DNA of 64,000 nucleotides from a phage. Made by a program: the position numbers and the translations under genes. The DNA is taken from sequence record PZ229304.1, one strand, 5' to 3'. The notes under the pieces were generated by a model. That model was not told the DNA's origin. It saw only the letters and a list, made by a program, of their open reading frames with translations, and ran no database searches. Positions 34,135 through 39,940 of this stretch are shown here, one piece after another. Within the stretch, counting starts at the first letter, position 1. The number at the start of each line of letters is the position of its first letter.

Positions 34135-34569
34135 TTAGTTTAAAATTTCTTTTGCAATGGTAGAAGCAAGTTTTCCATCATATTGATTCGGATACTCTGC
34201 TTTAAGGTGTTTCATCATATCTGGCATTTTCTTGCCTGTCAAGGCAAATTCTTCAGCAATAGAGCGAAGATCATCTTCAGATAGCATTTCTGGCAAATAT
34301 TTTTCCAGAGTGGTGATATCACGCATAGCTCGCTCACACTTGCTAATGGAGGCATTAACTTTCTTAAGCGAGTCTAGTTCCTCTTTAGCGTGTGCAATAC
34401 CAATCTTAACAATGTTAATCATAATATCGTCTTCTGATTTGTTTAGATTTGCCTTTTGAGTACGAGCAAGGTCAAACTCACCAATAATATTAGTTAACAA
34501 AGCAAAAGCACCCTTGTCGGTTGTACGTGCTAAGATACGATCTGCTTTCATTTGTGTCACAATAGACAT
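34135..34569 (-). CDS. GatB/YqeY-domain protein
   Basis: 144 aa; C-terminal ...EYLPEMLSEDDLRSIAEEF...MKHLKAEYPNQYDGKLASTIAKEILN matches the YqeY/GatB C-terminal pattern (..YLP..LSeeE...a...MK.l......DGK.vs..vK..L). Confidence 0.5.
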   Translation of the reverse strand: MSIVTQMKADRILARTTDKGAFALLTNIIGEFDLARTQKANLNKSEDDIMINIVKIGIAHAKEELDSLKKVNASISKCERAMRDITTLEKYLPEMLSEDDLRSIAEEFALTGKKMPDMMKHLKAEYPNQYDGKLASTIAKEILN

Positions 34570-35412: not shown

Positions 35413-38187
35413 TTAGTTTACCAGTTTATTTATATCTGGTAAAAGATTTATTTCACCTAAAAAATCACCTTCACCTTCCTCTAACCAACTCTCATATGCT
35501 TGTGCATGATTATAGTTACCATCAAAAGAATCTGCAACAAATTTTTCTACAGTTTTTCGAGATGTGTCAGCGCCAAATACACCAAGTTTAATACCATTGA
35601 TCGGTAAAGTGGTACTTGTTGGTACTTTCTCTGTTGCAACACGGTTGATATCTATAATCTCCTGTACGGTTGTGTTCCATTGTAAGCATTTAACACAACG
35701 GGTATGCGCTACATACAGTAGGTTTCGCTCTGCCTCTTCCAGTCCTACCCATTCACCAGTCTTTTTATCATAGTTGGAAGGAAAATCATTAGCAACAATA
35801 ACCTGATCCCACTCCAAACCTTTAGACTTGTGTGCTGTAGTCAGTGTGACTTTTGCTGTAGGAGAATTTCTATGCGTTCTAAGTGTATGTGCTATAGTGT
35901 TTGCCTTACCAGAAACTACGATGTTTAACAAGCGTTTAGCATCTGGATCAGCCTCTGCACACTCAACAAATTCATTCCAGTCTGCGTAAGGTAATACAGT
36001 TTCATGTTTTACTTTCTCAATATCTCCTCTCCGAAGAGCATTAACACTATCTACCATAGAGATAAAATCCCTGGTATCTACGTTAATAATAATTTCTTCC
36101 CCATCTGCAATACGATCCATTGCCTCCATAAGCAAGGTTAAATTCTTGCGAAAGATGATAGTGTAAGGTTTTGTATAGTCTACAACATCTGATTTGTAGC
36201 TACCTACTACAGTATCAAAGCCTTTACCAACCAAAGGGTGACGCAAAGGTTCTTTATCGCTTAAAATCATATTGGCAATGTTTGCCACTTTGGGGCCAAA
36301 ACGGAAGCAAGCAGTTAATGGAAGCTCTGCTCCATACTTAGCTGTTTCAATCATCATATTAGAGCTACCTCTAAATTGATAAATGCAGTTGTGGCTAAGA
36401 ATTTCATTACCAAAGAAGTTAGCAGTATCCTCTACTTCAATATCATAATAGATACCTTCACTATCTACAATGTCCACAATTTCTTCTGCCGTTACAGTAT
36501 CACCATCTTTTACCAACACAGACATGCCTTTAAACAAACCCGCCGCCGGAATTAAAGTATATTTGGCGGTGTTCACAGAGGACATGCATTCTTTTAAAGA
36601 TGCAAACGGCACTATTTCAAGGATCTTTTGTGCAAAACTCAATGCTTCACGATAAGAATTGAAATATTTACGTACACGGTAACGACCTTCCAACTTAGCA
36701 ACACTTACGCTTACACCTGCTTCAATGAGTGAAGCATAGATTGACATTTCACTTTCTGTCCACTCAAAACTAACTTGTGTTCCTTTACAACCTTGTGCTC
36801 GCAAAGTCACTGTTAACATTTTTCTTTCATCTACTGCACAATTGATGCTGTGCCAATGTGGATAAGCAAAATGATAATCTTTATCCTCTAAAAGTTTAAA
36901 ACCGTTTTGTCCGAATTGTTCAAAAATGTTATTGATCCTTTCTTGATTAATGCCGCGTGAACTTGCTTCAAATACACAAGTAGGAATGCCATATTGTAAA
37001 CTGTATGCCATTTCTTTTTCCATAGCAGCTTCACGGTTTTCAACAATATCCAACACCCATAATTTCTGTGCTTTTTCAGAACGTGTACGTTGCCCCAGTT
37101 TAGAAAAACCTTCTTTATCATCGAATTTGTTAGTGATCCCTACTCGGAAACCTAAATCTTTCCTCCACATTAGGTATACCACCATCTGATCATCTTTCAG
37201 AACATAGGATGAAGCCCAAATACGATGGTTATGTGTCATATCTAAAGTTTTACCTGTGGCAGTAATAATATTCCTACCTTTTGTACGTGTAGATAAAGTC
37301 TTATTTGTTACTTTTCTAAATGTAATTTTACCATTAGAATAAGACTCTACCTTATCACCGATTTGTAGGTCTTTCATTGTAACCTGACCATTCTCGGTAT
37401 TAAGTACCGTGTTTTCCGACACACATTGGAATTCATCGCCCACTACCACAATTTGTTTTGCAGATTTAGCATTTCGCAGAATAGACAAGAATGCAGGGTT
37501 AACATCCTGGAATTCATCACCAAAAATAATGTCATAACCAAGGTCAGCACCTGATAATTCAAACAATTTTACATAGGTGTCATGCGTCATCAAAGTATCT
37601 GTGTTAGGATCGATGCGCTCTCGCCACAATTGTTTTGCATACTTAACTACTTCTGTAATTAGTTTGTGTTCGTTAATACCTTTTCTTTTAATATCTGCAA
37701 GATGTACACTAGGAAAATGTTTACGGCTGATAAAAGGATCATCCGAAAATTCAAACTTACCTACGGTTTGCTTGATCATTAAACCAATCATAGCACGAGT
37801 TAACAGTGTTTTCCCTCGTTTATCAATAAGATTATTAATCTTAAATTTCTTTGCTATCTCGCTACCTGTACCTGCAACGTTAACATACTGTCCTTCTGGT
37901 CGTGACAGTTTTGCACGTAAACGATGATCCAGGAATTGATAGCAAATAGAATGCAATGTACGGCATTCTACATTTAGTGGCATCTTACGTCGTGCTTCTT
38001 CTGCCATGCTTTTATTGAAAGCTAAGTAAAGAATGCGATCTTCTGTACTGTTAGCCAGCAAATAAAGTGTTGACGTTTTGCCTGATCCAGATTTAGCTTG
38101 GATAGTTAAAAAGCGATGGTCTGGAAAAGCCTCCTTAATAGCTGTTTGCTCTTCTGTTGGAGTGAAGCTCAACTCTTTCTTAGCCAT
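35413..38187 (-). CDS. Superfamily-1 DNA helicase (UvrD/Dda-like) interrupted by an intein
   Basis: Start set at MAKKEL (GAGAGG RBS); Walker A AKSGSGKTST, motif II FGDEFQD; motif III is split: VVVGDEFQ | C...346 aa...HN | CIYQFRGSS, which rejoins to VGDEFQCIYQFRGS. Confidence 0.8.
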   Translation of the reverse strand: MAKKELSFTPTEEQTAIKEAFPDHRFLTIQAKSGSGKTSTLYLLANSTEDRILYLAFNKSMAEEARRKMPLNVECRTLHSICYQFLDHRLRAKLSRPEGQYVNVAGTGSEIAKKFKINNLIDKRGKTLLTRAMIGLMIKQTVGKFEFSDDPFISRKHFPSVHLADIKRKGINEHKLITEVVKYAKQLWRERIDPNTDTLMTHDTYVKLFELSGADLGYDIIFGDEFQDVNPAFLSILRNAKSAKQIVVVGDEFQCVSENTVLNTENGQVTMKDLQIGDKVESYSNGKITFRKVTNKTLSTRTKGRNIITATGKTLDMTHNHRIWASSYVLKDDQMVVYLMWRKDLGFRVGITNKFDDKEGFSKLGQRTRSEKAQKLWVLDIVENREAAMEKEMAYSLQYGIPTCVFEASSRGINQERINNIFEQFGQNGFKLLEDKDYHFAYPHWHSINCAVDERKMLTVTLRAQGCKGTQVSFEWTESEMSIYASLIEAGVSVSVAKLEGRYRVRKYFNSYREALSFAQKILEIVPFASLKECMSSVNTAKYTLIPAAGLFKGMSVLVKDGDTVTAEEIVDIVDSEGIYYDIEVEDTANFFGNEILSHNCIYQFRGSSNMMIETAKYGAELPLTACFRFGPKVANIANMILSDKEPLRHPLVGKGFDTVVGSYKSDVVDYTKPYTIIFRKNLTLLMEAMDRIADGEEIIINVDTRDFISMVDSVNALRRGDIEKVKHETVLPYADWNEFVECAEADPDAKRLLNIVVSGKANTIAHTLRTHRNSPTAKVTLTTAHKSKGLEWDQVIVANDFPSNYDKKTGEWVGLEEAERNLLYVAHTRCVKCLQWNTTVQEIIDINRVATEKVPTSTTLPINGIKLGVFGADTSRKTVEKFVADSFDGNYNHAQAYESWLEEGEGDFLGEINLLPDINKLVN
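36388..37425 (-). mobile_element. Intein (about 346 aa, Cys1 ... His-Asn, +1 Cys) inserted in helicase motif III; size suggests an embedded homing-endonuclease domain
   Basis: N-terminal Cys directly after GDEFQ, block-B-like TxxH (DMTHNH), C-terminal ILSHN followed by extein Cys; excision restores a canonical helicase motif. Confidence 0.7.
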
Positions 38188-38188
38188 T

Positions 38189-38665
38189 TCAACCTCTCTT
38201 AATTTGTTTAACAAGCATAGGAACAAAGTCTCGTTTTAAAATTTGTTCAATAATATGATCAGGTAGCTGTTGGAAATTATAATTAAAAGCTACTGTCTCA
38301 CCTTTAGGTGTTTCTACCCGCACATATAACATGTTACGAAGTTTATCCACTTGTGCTGTATATTCTAAACCATGTAATTGATGCATTGCAAACATCAAAT
38401 CATCAGTTTCAGTTTGGAATCTATCCCTTCCCTGCATCAAGGACAAGGAAAAAGGTAGATTTTCCCTAAGAGCCACCTTCTTAGGCACTAGTGAAGGGAA
38501 ATACTCCCCAATAACTGCCTGTGTAAGCTGAATACACTCTTTTTCAAGCTGGTTTTGTTCCTTGAGTTCACAAACACTCTTTTGTAAAGTGTTAACCTCT
38601 TTTTGCAAAGCTGCTAGTTGAGCACTTAACTTTCTTTTTTGATTACGACCAAAACGTTTAGACAT
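38189..38665 (-). CDS. Hypothetical protein (coiled-coil N-terminus)
   Basis: 158-aa ORF. Confidence 0.4.
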   Translation of the reverse strand: MSKRFGRNQKRKLSAQLAALQKEVNTLQKSVCELKEQNQLEKECIQLTQAVIGEYFPSLVPKKVALRENLPFSLSLMQGRDRFQTETDDLMFAMHQLHGLEYTAQVDKLRNMLYVRVETPKGETVAFNYNFQQLPDHIIEQILKRDFVPMLVKQIKRG

Positions 38666-39210: not shown

Positions 39211-39651
39211 TTAAACGTTTTCTAAATCTTTTAAGGCATTACCCAACGTTAAAACAATAACATCGTTTGCTGCCTCTTCCCCATTGATATTGGTGAAATT
39301 TGGTGTGACAAAAGTAACCATATAAAACTCGTCCACCTGGAAGATAGCAATAACACCATCCATCTTAACATCTTGACGAAAGGAAAAACCAATCATCTTC
39401 TCTTGCAAAGGCATATCCCCTTCCTTCATTACCGCTAGGGAGTTTTCAGGAATGTTATATTTATCTGCTCCTATGTAGATGTACGTAATGTTATCTTTAT
39501 CGTGATGATACAGGGTTGCTTTTTCCATATCTAAACCTGACAAATCAAATACGTTAATTTCTTGTGTAGTCTTCATAAATATCCTCCCAAATCCAATAAT
39601 CATCTGTGTAAGTAGGATGCCTTTTATCCCACTCTGTTCTAGCCCAAGCAA
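39211..39651 (-). CDS. Hypothetical protein
   Basis: 146-aa ORF; true start may be internal because the 5' end overlaps the upstream gene. Confidence 0.35.
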   Translation of the reverse strand: MLGLEQSGIKGILLTQMIIGFGRIFMKTTQEINVFDLSGLDMEKATLYHHDKDNITYIYIGADKYNIPENSLAVMKEGDMPLQEKMIGFSFRQDVKMDGVIAIFQVDEFYMVTFVTPNFTNINGEEAANDVIVLTLGNALKDLENV

Positions 39652-39940
39652 CCGCTGCTACCAACACATCACCATGACAAGGTTGAGGTGAGCAGAAGCA
39701 AACTAAGTCTTTCCCTTCTAATTCTAACAAATCCTCAAGAGTGATTTTACCACAACGAATTTGTTCCCACAACCACTCTTTATATCTTTGTATAGTTGAT
39801 CCTCGTGGTTCGTCATCCTTTAACTTAAAAGGATTTGCAAACTTTGAGGCTTTTAACCCCATATGAGGCATAGCTCTGCCAATGTACACTGCACCTTCAG
39901 GTATTACTTTACCTAAGTGGTAAAAATTTAATACTTTCAT
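39554..39940 (-). CDS. DUF4326-like protein
   Basis: Start set at MKVLNF; pattern YIGR....NPF...........Y..WL.........LEGKDLVCFCSPQPCHGDVL recalls the DUF4326 family. Confidence 0.4.
   Translation of the reverse strand: MKVLNFYHLGKVIPEGAVYIGRAMPHMGLKASKFANPFKLKDDEPRGSTIQRYKEWLWEQIRCGKITLEDLLELEGKDLVCFCSPQPCHGDVLVAAVAWARTEWDKRHPTYTDDYWIWEDIYEDYTRN

What the first reader, a model, noticed from the sequence alone, without database searches (positions are those of the whole stretch)
36388..37425. Intein of about 346 aa splitting motif III of an SF1 helicase
The helicase ORF reads VVVGDEFQ-[C VSENTVL ... NEILSHN]-CIYQFRGSS. Removing the Cys-to-Asn segment yields VGDEFQCIYQFRGS, a canonical UvrD-like motif III, and the insert has intein hallmarks (Cys1, TxxH block B, terminal His-Asn, +1 Cys). 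Its size implies an embedded homing-endonuclease domain, so it is an active or recently active selfish element inside an essential replication gene.
Basis: seen in the sequence. Interest (0 to 1): 0.6.

Follow-up and report, generated by a model that had tools for sequence, protein, structure and literature searches.

The report
Mobile intein in phage helicase gene
A phi92-like coliphage helicase gene carries a real 346-residue self-splicing intein in its motif III that is still jumping between phages; GenBank already annotates it in sibling phages, but its nested nuclease-like domain fits no recognised homing-endonuclease family.

Summary
The gene lies on the minus strand. Window 36388-37425 (-) encodes a 346-aa insert, Cys1 to His-Asn followed by Cys+1, inside a 924-aa UvrD-type helicase (35413-38187, -).

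It is mobile. Presence varies within one species. A Phapecoctavirus carries the same intein (97% identity) plus 267 nt of downstream flank in an otherwise 70%-identical gene.

The intein is already annotated in GenBank (BASEL phages PaulScherrer and JohannJBalmer; vB_EcoM_ZYD), so the finding as stated is not new.

The nested domain is neither LAGLIDADG nor HNH. It has no Pfam, NCBIfam, PHROG or PDB-sequence match. It is under strong purifying selection (dN/dS 0-0.06) and recurs in over 1,200 protein clusters; every one whose host I checked is a UvrD-helicase intein. Its fold and conserved residues resemble GIY-YIG nucleases, but membership is inconclusive.

Four free-standing, splice-dead relatives were examined. 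Each sits directly downstream of an uninterrupted helicase gene.

The parts
35413..38187 (-). Helicase precursor CDS (924 aa plus stop), UvrD/Rep-type SF1 helicase carrying the intein
   Evidence: ORF list and translation. Pfam UvrD-helicase 45.3 bits and UvrD_C 42.3 bits, both above cut-off. PHROG 1967 'DNA helicase' E 4e-162. Same CDS limits as bas60_0082 in PaulScherrer.
37426..38187 (-). N-extein (aa 1-254): Walker A, motif II and the first half of motif III, ending VVVGDEFQ
   Evidence: The Pfam UvrD-helicase match ends at profile position 252/271, exactly at the junction.
36388..37425 (-). Intein, 346 aa, class 1 (Cys1; T64xxH67; H345-N346)
37195..37425 (-). N-terminal part of the Hint splicing fold (intein aa 1-77; blocks A and B)
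36856..37194 (-). Nested domain, conserved half (intein aa 78-190): beta-beta-alpha-beta-alpha core plus two helices, with near-invariant Y84, G92, R94, G96, R113, E117, W123, E138, P148. Putative nuclease catalytic domain with GIY-YIG-like topology.
36571..36855 (-). Nested domain, variable half (intein aa 191-285): beta-beta-alpha-beta-alpha. Putative target-DNA-binding/specificity module.
   Evidence: Poorly conserved across the family. dN/dS 0.20-0.24. A strongly diverged patch in the Klebsiella phage KP2025 copy (58-76% nucleotide identity against 90-100% elsewhere). The function is inferred.
36388..36570 (-). C-terminal part of the Hint fold (intein aa 286-346; blocks F and G, ...DTANFFGNEILSHN)
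   Evidence: NCBIfam intein_Cterm above cut-off. Model strands 288-345. dN/dS 0.03-0.08.
35413..36387 (-). C-extein (aa 601-924 plus stop), starting with the +1 Cys codon at 36385-36387 and the second half of motif III, CIYQFRGS
   Evidence: UvrD_C and UvrD_C_2 matches.
37426..37452 (-). Upstream extein stretch that differs sharply from intein-free alleles (co-conversion tract / disrupted homing site, 5' side)
   Evidence: Of 43 extein differences between the window and phage inny, 27 lie between -27 and +56 of the junction; the rest of the gene is about 1% divergent.
36331..36387 (-). Downstream extein stretch that differs sharply from intein-free alleles (co-conversion tract, 3' side)

Best explanation
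This is a functional class 1 intein with a nested endonuclease-like domain. It sits in motif III of the UvrD-type helicase of a phi92-like (Justusliebigvirus) coliphage.

Proposed mechanism:
1. The gene is translated as a 924-aa precursor.
2. The Hint fold carries out standard protein splicing: N-S acyl shift at Cys1, trans-thioesterification to Cys+1, cyclisation of Asn346 helped by His345, then S-N shift.
3. Splicing releases a 578-aa helicase with a restored motif III (VGDEFQ-C-IYQFRGS) and a free 346-aa intein.
4. The nested domain (aa 78-285) then acts as a homing endonuclease on intein-less helicase alleles of co-infecting phages. The target lies around GGTGAYGAATWTCAG|AGYATYTAYCAGTTCCGTGG.
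5. Repair from the intein-bearing allele copies the intein together with a short stretch of flanking extein.

I take the conserved half (aa 78-190) to be a very divergent GIY-YIG-like catalytic module. Y84, R113 and E138 sit at the canonical places, and Arg94 replaces the second Tyr. The variable half (aa 191-285) would be the DNA-recognition module.

Shown here: the insertion, the Hint fold, the splice residues, presence/absence polymorphism, horizontal transfer with co-conversion, and purifying selection.

Inferred: actual splicing, nuclease activity, the cleavage site and the GIY-YIG relationship.
For: Intein identity:
- Pfam and NCBIfam intein profile hits.
- All class 1 catalytic residues are present.
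- 36 phage records carry it and 20 at 97-99% identity lack exactly 1038 nt. The intein-free proteins read VGDEYQ|SIYQFRG.

Mobility:
- Both states occur within the species Justusliebigvirus alia (OZ035770 with the intein, MN850632 without).
- 27 of 43 extein differences are crowded into -27..+56 around the junction.
- Phapecoctavirus DIJ07P2 matches its own genus up to 3 nt before the insertion site. It then matches the window through the intein (97.2%) and 267 nt of C-extein, then matches its own genus again.

The nested domain is maintained:
- dN/dS 0-0.06 for aa 78-190.
- 1,221 cluster representatives at E<=1e-3.
- 9 of 9 sampled hosts are UvrD helicases with the insert at the same site.
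- Junction strings show motif III in most of the family.
- 4 of 4 free-standing relatives examined lie 0-46 nt downstream of an intact UvrD helicase gene, as free-standing homing endonuclease genes do.

GIY-YIG-like fold:
- The topology is beta81-88, beta92-98, alpha110-116, beta121-128, alpha131-145.
- They make up at least 10 of the top 50 Foldseek BFVD hits.
Against: - No experiment here shows splicing or DNA cleavage.
- The Pfam Intein_splicing score (33.7 bits) is just under its gathering cut-off (35.8). NCBIfam intein_Nterm (17.5-20.5 bits) is under its cut-off of 24.5.
- The nested domain has no significant sequence match to any nuclease family. Only 1 of 45 diverse members touches Pfam GIY-YIG, at E 0.14. 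PDB sequence profiles find nothing. hhalign against a small T4 GIY-YIG profile gives only 5-10% probability.
- The second Tyr of the GIY-YIG signature is Arg in 99% of members.
- Phage recombination during mixed infection could in principle move the intein without a dedicated nuclease.
Confidence: 0.8

Rival explanations
1. It is a splicing-competent intein whose nested domain is not, or is no longer, a nuclease. The domain could be a DNA-binding, regulatory or structural module. The element would then spread or persist only through ordinary phage recombination and vertical descent.
Against: The conserved half is under very strong purifying selection even among near-identical copies (0 non-synonymous against 3-8 synonymous changes). 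In DIJ07P2 the recombination junction falls within 3 nt of the insertion site on one side. A short one-sided tract lies on the other side, and the two backbones are only about 70% identical. That is what break-initiated gene conversion predicts; chance crossovers would rarely land there. Splice-dead free-standing relatives persist next to helicase genes, which makes sense only if the protein has an activity of its own.
Confidence: 0.15
2. The insert is an ordinary lineage-specific helicase subdomain (for example an elaborated 1B/2B domain), not an intein.
For: SF1 helicases do carry variable insertions between core motifs. The Pfam Intein_splicing score is slightly below its cut-off.
Confidence: 0.01
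3. It is a domesticated, conditionally splicing intein. Helicase activity would be gated, for example by redox state through Cys1/Cys+1, so the host phage keeps the intein for regulation.
For: The intein-bearing alleles use Cys at +1 where the intein-free alleles and most family members have Ser. The intein sits in an ATPase motif, as do the conditional inteins discussed by Novikova et al. 2016 (PMC4760082).
Against: About a third of otherwise near-identical phages do without it, so it is dispensable. Its sporadic distribution and inter-genus transfer are signatures of a selfish element. This reading does not exclude the main one.
Confidence: 0.04

Closest known systems
The same intein as annotated in BASEL phages PaulScherrer (MZ501100, bas60_0082) and JohannJBalmer (MZ501084), and in vB_EcoM_ZYD (PQ110661)
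   Same: Same gene, same site, 97.7-98.4% nucleotide identity over the whole helicase-gene query. Annotated as 'intein-containing UvrD / Rep family helicase precursor' with mat_peptide features. The BASEL paper states that inteins were identified precisely by comparative annotation (PMC8594841).
   Different: The BASEL intein feature is 347 codons and includes the +1 Cys. Intein-free alleles show that this residue belongs to the extein. No publication found here describes its endonuclease domain, its splicing or its mobility. [quoted passage not shown]
Bacterial UvrD-helicase inteins (16 listed by Novikova et al. 2016, PMC4760082)
   Same: Same host protein family. In the relatives recovered here it is also the same insertion point (GDxxQ|C...HN|S-IYxFRG) and the same nested domain.
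   Different: Most bacterial members have Ser at +1, whereas the phage copy has Cys. Some bacterial helicases carry two or three such inteins, at motif II, motif III and a third site.
Structurally characterised class 1 inteins (NpuDnaB 4o1r, gp41-1 6riz, Mtu RecA 2imz)
   Different: Those structures are mini-inteins or splicing domains alone. This intein has a nested domain of about 210 aa at the usual endonuclease insertion point. Unlike PI-SceI, PI-PfuI or TliVMA, that domain does not align with the LAGLIDADG domain: only the roughly 130 Hint residues align.
GIY-YIG homing endonucleases (I-TevI, Seg proteins) and repair nucleases (UvrC, SLX1)
   Same: Same beta-beta-alpha-beta-alpha core order. 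There is a Tyr in strand 1, a Gly-rich strand 2 (xRVG against YIG), an Arg in helix 1 and a Glu in helix 2. They recur as weak structural hits. A two-part build (catalytic plus variable DNA-binding half) would match the modular GIY-YIG enzymes, but the DNA-binding role here is inferred.
   Different: No significant sequence or profile similarity. The second Tyr is Arg and the helix-1 His/Tyr position is Glu. GIY-YIG domains were reported not to occur in inteins (PMC1564403; PMC2677866).
Yeast HO endonuclease (a free-standing, non-splicing descendant of a VMA1-type intein; from established knowledge, also cited in bioRxiv 10.1101/2025.01.02.630785)
   Same: The free-standing relatives of this intein (P0003-P0011) likewise keep Hint remnants around the nested domain but have lost Cys1 and the terminal His-Asn.
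   Different: HO has a LAGLIDADG domain and is a domesticated cellular gene. The relatives here lie in phage-like contigs directly after the helicase gene, which is probably their target.

Membership tests
Intein (class 1) | In-frame insertion in a conserved site of a host protein, absent from close homologues | tested here: met
   20 genomes at 97-99% identity lack exactly 1038 nt. Their proteins read VGDEYQ|SIYQFRG.
Intein (class 1) | Hint (hedgehog/intein) fold formed by the N- and C-terminal parts | tested here: met
Intein (class 1) | Catalytic residues: Cys/Ser1, block B TxxH, penultimate His, terminal Asn, Cys/Ser/Thr at +1 | tested here: met
   C1, T64-H-N-H67, H345, N346 and C+1 are read directly from the translation.
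Intein (class 1) | Curated profile scores | tested here: inconclusive
   NCBIfam intein_Cterm 20.1-23.4 bits, above its cut-off of 15.6. Pfam Intein_splicing 33.7 bits, below 35.8. NCBIfam intein_Nterm 17.5-20.5 bits, below 24.5.
Intein (class 1) | Protein splicing actually occurs | not testable with these tools
   Inferred only. Phages with the intein in a catalytic helicase motif have been isolated and deposited as complete genomes, for example phi92 and PaulScherrer.
Mobile (homing) intein | Sporadic distribution, and transfer together with flanking extein sequence (co-conversion) | tested here: met
   36 records with the intein against 20 without in one genus, and both states in one species. 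Flank divergence is concentrated at -27..+56. In DIJ07P2 the intein plus 267 nt of flank were imported into a 70%-identical backbone.
Mobile (homing) intein | Site-specific cleavage of the intein-less allele by the intein-encoded nuclease | not testable with these tools
LAGLIDADG homing endonuclease domain | LAGLIDADG motifs / match to the Pfam LAGLIDADG or Hom_end families / alpha-beta-beta-alpha-beta-beta-alpha fold | tested here: not met
   No such Pfam, NCBIfam or PHROG hit at E<=1. LAGLIDADG-containing inteins (PI-PfuI, PI-PkoII, PI-SceI, TliVMA) align only over the 130-160 residues of their splicing domain.
HNH homing endonuclease domain | HNH / beta-beta-alpha-metal motif | tested here: not met
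   No Pfam, NCBIfam or PHROG HNH hit. No conserved His/Asn/His or Cys clusters among the near-invariant residues.
GIY-YIG nuclease superfamily | Significant sequence or profile match to GIY-YIG (PF01541 and relatives) | tested here: not met
   The window sequence has no hit. 1 of 45 diverse members hits at E 0.14. hhalign against a 7-sequence T4 GIY-YIG profile gives 5-10% probability over 16-17 columns.
GIY-YIG nuclease superfamily | Three-stranded sheet with beta-beta-alpha-beta-alpha order; structural similarity to solved members | tested here: inconclusive
GIY-YIG nuclease superfamily | Catalytic set: Tyr (GIY), Tyr (YIG), Arg, Glu, and often His/Tyr and Asn | tested here: inconclusive
   Y84 (99%), R113 (99%) and E138 (98%) are conserved at topologically matching places. 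The second Tyr is R94 (99%) and the helix-1 His position is E117 (97%). The mapping is by topology, not by a significant alignment.
UvrD/Rep-type SF1 helicase (host protein) | UvrD-helicase N-terminal and UvrD_C domains above the curated cut-offs; motifs I, II, III and VI | tested here: met
   PF00580 45.3 bits (cut-off 23) and PF13361 42.3 bits (cut-off 25.6). AKSGSGKTS, FGDEFQD, VGDEFQ/CIYQFRG and YVAHTR are read in the translation.

The most novel reading that the evidence does not exclude
The nested domain would be the founding example of an unrecognised, abundant homing-endonuclease family: a highly divergent GIY-YIG-type nuclease embedded in frame within inteins. The literature read here says that combination does not occur. 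The family would be specialised on UvrD-type helicases (motifs II and III and a third site). Splice-dead, Hint-retaining descendants have escaped to become free-standing homing genes just downstream of helicase genes. In the four examined, motif III has Ala at +1 and so could not host a splicing intein. That would show an intein-to-free-standing route in phages, analogous to yeast HO.
Probability: 0.4. Interest if true: 0.65.

Novelty: already known. Interest (0 to 1): 0.42.

Why it matters
As stated, the finding is a correct but ordinary call: an intein in a nucleotide-binding motif of a phage helicase, already annotated in sibling genomes.

It is worth a second look for three reasons.

1. 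It is a clean natural system for studying intein homing in coliphages. Intein-bearing and intein-free phages that differ by about 2% grow on E. coli K-12. PaulScherrer and JohannJBalmer carry the intein and EmilieFrey lacks it, all in the same public collection.

2. Its endonuclease-like domain belongs to none of the families recognised in inteins, yet it is found in more than a thousand protein clusters. A GIY-YIG-type nuclease inside an intein would fill a gap noted since 2006-2009.

3. The free-standing, splice-dead relatives next to helicase genes bear on the long-running question of how inteins and homing endonucleases associate and dissociate.

Tried and rejected
- Plus-strand reading of the given coordinates: full of stops. 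The gene is on the minus strand.
- Helicase-subdomain reading: rejected by the exact 1038-nt absence in 20 sibling genomes.
- LAGLIDADG or HNH endonuclease: no profile hit, and no structural alignment beyond the Hint part.
- Sequence-level identification of the nested domain failed everywhere. This covers Pfam, NCBIfam and PHROGs on the window sequence. It also covers Pfam and PHROGs on 45 diverse members and PDB sequence profiles built from 3 and from 45 sequences.
- hhalign against a GIY-YIG profile built from T4 I-TevI, I-TevII, SegA, SegB, SegC and SegF plus one metagenomic homologue: only 5-10% probability. The template profile was thin (7 sequences), so this is a weak negative.
- Foldseek against afdb50 was not available.
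- The first homologue search with the whole intein returned only 2 proteins. The word-indexed database apparently does not return the near-identical phage proteins. The exhaustive representative search was needed.
- Exact look-up of the window's helicase in the protein collection: not present.
- Rfam and tRNA scans of the window found nothing, so there is no group I intron or similar element nearby.
- Pfam scan of nine neighbouring ORFs found only YqeY-like and DUF4326 domains. Nothing relates to the intein.
Full report
**1. The observation**

The plus-strand translation is full of stops. The minus-strand translation of 36388-37425 is an open 346-codon stretch, CVSENTVL...FFGNEILSHN. It lies in frame inside ORF 35413..38226 (-).

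The flanks read ...AKQIVVVGDEFQ | intein | CIYQFRGSSNMM.... The ATG at 38187 is the start annotated in relatives. It gives a 924-aa precursor with the intein at residues 255-600.

The class 1 intein residues can be read directly: Cys1, T64-H-N-H67 (block B), H345-N346 and Cys+1.

**2. It is an intein**

- Profile hits: Pfam Intein_splicing (E 3.9e-8, 33.7 bits, just under the 35.8 cut-off), Hint and Hint_2. NCBIfam intein_Cterm is above its cut-off and intein_Nterm is below.
- An AlphaFold2 model built on 13 sequences is confident (pLDDT 89.7, pTM 0.86).
- The host protein is a UvrD/Rep-type SF1 helicase. PF00580 and PF13361 score above cut-off, and PHROG 1967 hits at E 4e-162. The N-terminal helicase profile stops at the junction (profile position 252/271).

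**3. Natural intein-free alleles**

The window is a phi92-like phage of the genus Justusliebigvirus, 99.0% identical to vB_EcoM_ESCO32 over the gene.

- Of 56 records at 97-99% identity, 36 carry the insert. Twenty match in two pieces that span 1776 instead of 2814 nt, which is exactly 1038 nt less.
- The intein-free proteins read VVVGDEYQ|SIYQFRGSQ (inny, alia). The Phapecoctavirus ukendt reads VVVGDEFQ|SIYQFRGSQ.
- The excised motif is therefore the canonical UvrD motif III. The natural residue after Gln is Ser, not Cys.

**4. It is, or very recently was, mobile**

- Presence and absence both occur within one species: Justusliebigvirus alia OZ035770 has the intein and MN850632 lacks it.
- After removing the intein, the window and inny differ at 43 of 1776 positions. 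Of these, 27 lie between -27 and +56 of the junction, mostly synonymous. The rest of the gene is about 1% divergent. The same pattern holds for four other pairs of intein-bearing and intein-free alleles.
- Phapecoctavirus DIJ07P2 carries the intein at 97.2% identity to the window, although its N-extein is only 70% identical.
- Site-by-site analysis of DIJ07P2 shows three segments:
  - It matches its own genus (ukendt) up to 3 nt before the insertion point.
  - It matches the window through the intein and 267 nt of C-extein.
  - It then matches ukendt again.
- This is a one-sided co-conversion tract, as expected from break-initiated gene conversion. It records transfer between genera.
- Klebsiella phage KP2025 carries a more distant copy: intein 89% identical, exteins 72-78%.

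**5. The nested domain**

Between blocks B and F lie about 210 residues (aa 78-285). No LAGLIDADG, HNH or other nuclease family is detected in Pfam, NCBIfam or PHROGs. LAGLIDADG-bearing inteins align only over their Hint parts.

The domain is real and maintained:

- A profile of it finds 1,221 cluster representatives at E<=1e-3 (511 at <=1e-10) among 1.84 billion.
- All nine large hits I scanned are UvrD-family helicases with an intein at the same place.
- Junction strings extracted for about 150 members show GDxxQ|C...HN|(S/C)IYxFRG in most. A second site lies in motif II (DEAQDLNK|C..., or VDE|C...HN|CQDLN). A third site reads LIxHN|C...HN|SKQIPM.
- Some helicases carry two or three such inteins.
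- Across 164 domains the near-invariant residues are Y84, L85, M86, G92, R94, G96, R113, E117, W123, E138, S142, P148, F168, G172, G175, L179 and P189. The second half (aa 191-285) is poorly conserved.
- Among the close phage copies, dN/dS is 0-0.06 for aa 78-190, 0.03-0.08 for the C-terminal Hint part and 0.20-0.24 for aa 191-285.

**6. What fold is it?**

The conserved half is beta(81-88)-beta(92-98)-alpha(110-116)-beta(121-128)-alpha(131-145), followed by two helices. This is the strand and helix order of the GIY-YIG core. Y84 sits in strand 1, xR94-V-G96 in strand 2, R113/E117 in helix 1 and E138 in helix 2.

Structural searches point the same way, but weakly:

- Foldseek against viral structures first returns the phage's own helicase, another intein-bearing helicase and a DNA methyltransferase. 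After those, at least 10 of the top 50 hits are annotated GIY-YIG or homing endonucleases, with probability up to 0.99 at E 0.007-0.1.

Sequence tests are negative.

I therefore say it looks like, and probably works like, a divergent GIY-YIG nuclease. I do not file it as a member.

The literature I read lists LAGLIDADG and HNH as the endonuclease types found inside inteins, with VSR-like and EndoVII-like genes in non-canonical arrangements. Two papers state that GIY-YIG is not known in inteins (PMC1564403; PMC2677866; bioRxiv 10.1101/2025.01.02.630785).

**7. Free-standing relatives (outside the window)**

Nine homologues of 302-358 aa start with Met inside the N-terminal Hint part. They have no block A Cys. 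They end at the C-terminal splice block, with His-Asn replaced by RN, HS, HE, HD and similar.

- All four contexts I fetched place the ORF 0-46 nt downstream of an uninterrupted 483-499-aa UvrD helicase gene in phage-like contigs.
- In all four helicases motif III reads GDxxQ-A-I(Y/F)xF. The Ala at +1 could not support splicing.
- The ORF's G+C content is 5-15 points below that of the helicase gene.
- These look like intein-derived free-standing homing genes, comparable in principle to yeast HO.

**8. Mechanism and status of each step**

The proposed steps are:

1. Translation of the precursor.
2. Class 1 splicing through Cys1, Cys+1 and Asn346.
3. Release of a 578-aa helicase and a free intein.
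4. Cleavage of intein-less alleles in mixed infection.
5. Repair that copies the intein and a short flank.

Shown here: the anatomy, the fold, the catalytic residues, the polymorphism, transfer with co-conversion, and selection on the nested domain.

Inferred: splicing itself, nuclease activity, the cut site and the GIY-YIG relationship. 'Essential replication gene' was not tested.

**9. Known or new**

The same intein is annotated in GenBank as 'intein-containing UvrD / Rep family helicase precursor' in PaulScherrer and JohannJBalmer, and as 'intein-containing UvrD' in vB_EcoM_ZYD. The BASEL paper mentions precise intein annotation (PMC8594841).

Their intein feature includes the +1 Cys (347 codons). 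Judged against the intein-free alleles, this is one codon too long.

UvrD inteins in bacteria are listed by Novikova et al. (PMC4760082). I found no description of this intein's nested domain, its splicing or its homing. A 2024 paper states that no inteins have been reported in coliphages (PMC11162368).

**Verdict.** The finding is right and already known as an annotation, so it has moderate interest. The unclassified nuclease-like domain, the free-standing derivatives and the ready-made experimental pairs are what could make it worth pursuing.

Noticed in passing
L005 3455-6002; L007 1877-4392; L008 2531-5014; L009 2535-4918: Free-standing 305-350-aa relatives of the intein keep Hint remnants and the nested domain but have lost Cys1 and the terminal His-Asn. 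Each lies 0-46 nt downstream of an uninterrupted UvrD helicase gene in phage-like metagenomic contigs. All four helicases have Ala at the +1 position of motif III, and the ORFs have lower G+C than the helicase genes.
   Followed up: partly
L010 (Phapecoctavirus DIJ07P2, OZ035771.1 68071-71720): This is a mosaic helicase gene. It is Phapecoctavirus-type up to 3 nt before the insertion site and Justusliebigvirus-type through the intein and 267 nt of C-extein. It then returns to Phapecoctavirus-type. It records an inter-genus homing event with one-sided co-conversion.
   Followed up: yes
Proteins P0013, P0014, P0016-P0020, P0018/P0098/P0105/P0109 (representative library): Large UvrD-like helicases (1,400-2,500 aa) carry two or three inteins with the same nested domain at different sites: motif II DEAQDLNK|C, motif III GDDKQ|C, and LIxHN|C...HN|SKQIPM.
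   Followed up: partly
BFVD entry A0A8S5TZY8 (Myoviridae sp. ctCuC1, 'Adenine specific DNA methyltransferase', 782 aa): It gives a Foldseek match (E 2.7e-6, 21% identity) to the nested domain, so the domain may also occur in inteins outside helicases.
   Followed up: no
L001 3973-5013 (PaulScherrer MZ501100, mat_peptide 'intein'): The deposited intein feature is 347 codons and ends ...SHNC, so it includes the +1 Cys. That residue belongs to the C-extein, because intein-free alleles keep a Ser there.
   Followed up: yes
Phage records MG065639, MG065645, MG065656, MG065689 ('Campylobacter phage A150/A145/C3/A110a'): These four unannotated genomes of about 146.4 kb are labelled with Campylobacter jejuni as host. 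They are 98.5% identical to this coliphage helicase-plus-intein region. The host labels look doubtful, or the phages are Justusliebigvirus contaminants.
   Followed up: no
L003 (Klebsiella phage KP2025), intein coding positions about 650-850 (window 36376-36776 equivalent): Within the KP2025 intein, a 200-nt patch in the variable half of the nested domain is only 58-76% identical to the window, while the rest of the intein is 84-100% identical. dS is 0.88 there against about 0.12 in the N-terminal parts of the intein and 0.45 in the C-terminal Hint part. This suggests modular exchange of the putative DNA-recognition part.
   Followed up: partly
window 37426-37440 and 37519-37533 (-): The pentapeptide GDEFQ occurs twice in the N-extein: in motif II (IIFGDEFQDVN) and directly before the intein (VVVGDEFQ|C). 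Relatives of this intein family also insert at motif II.
   Followed up: no
window 34135-34569 (-) and 39554-39940 (-): Nearby ORFs include a YqeY-like protein (PF09424; annotated in BASEL as a putative aspartyl/glutamyl-tRNA synthetase-related protein) and a DUF4326 protein. The whole 64-kb window has no tRNA genes and no Rfam matches.
   Followed up: no
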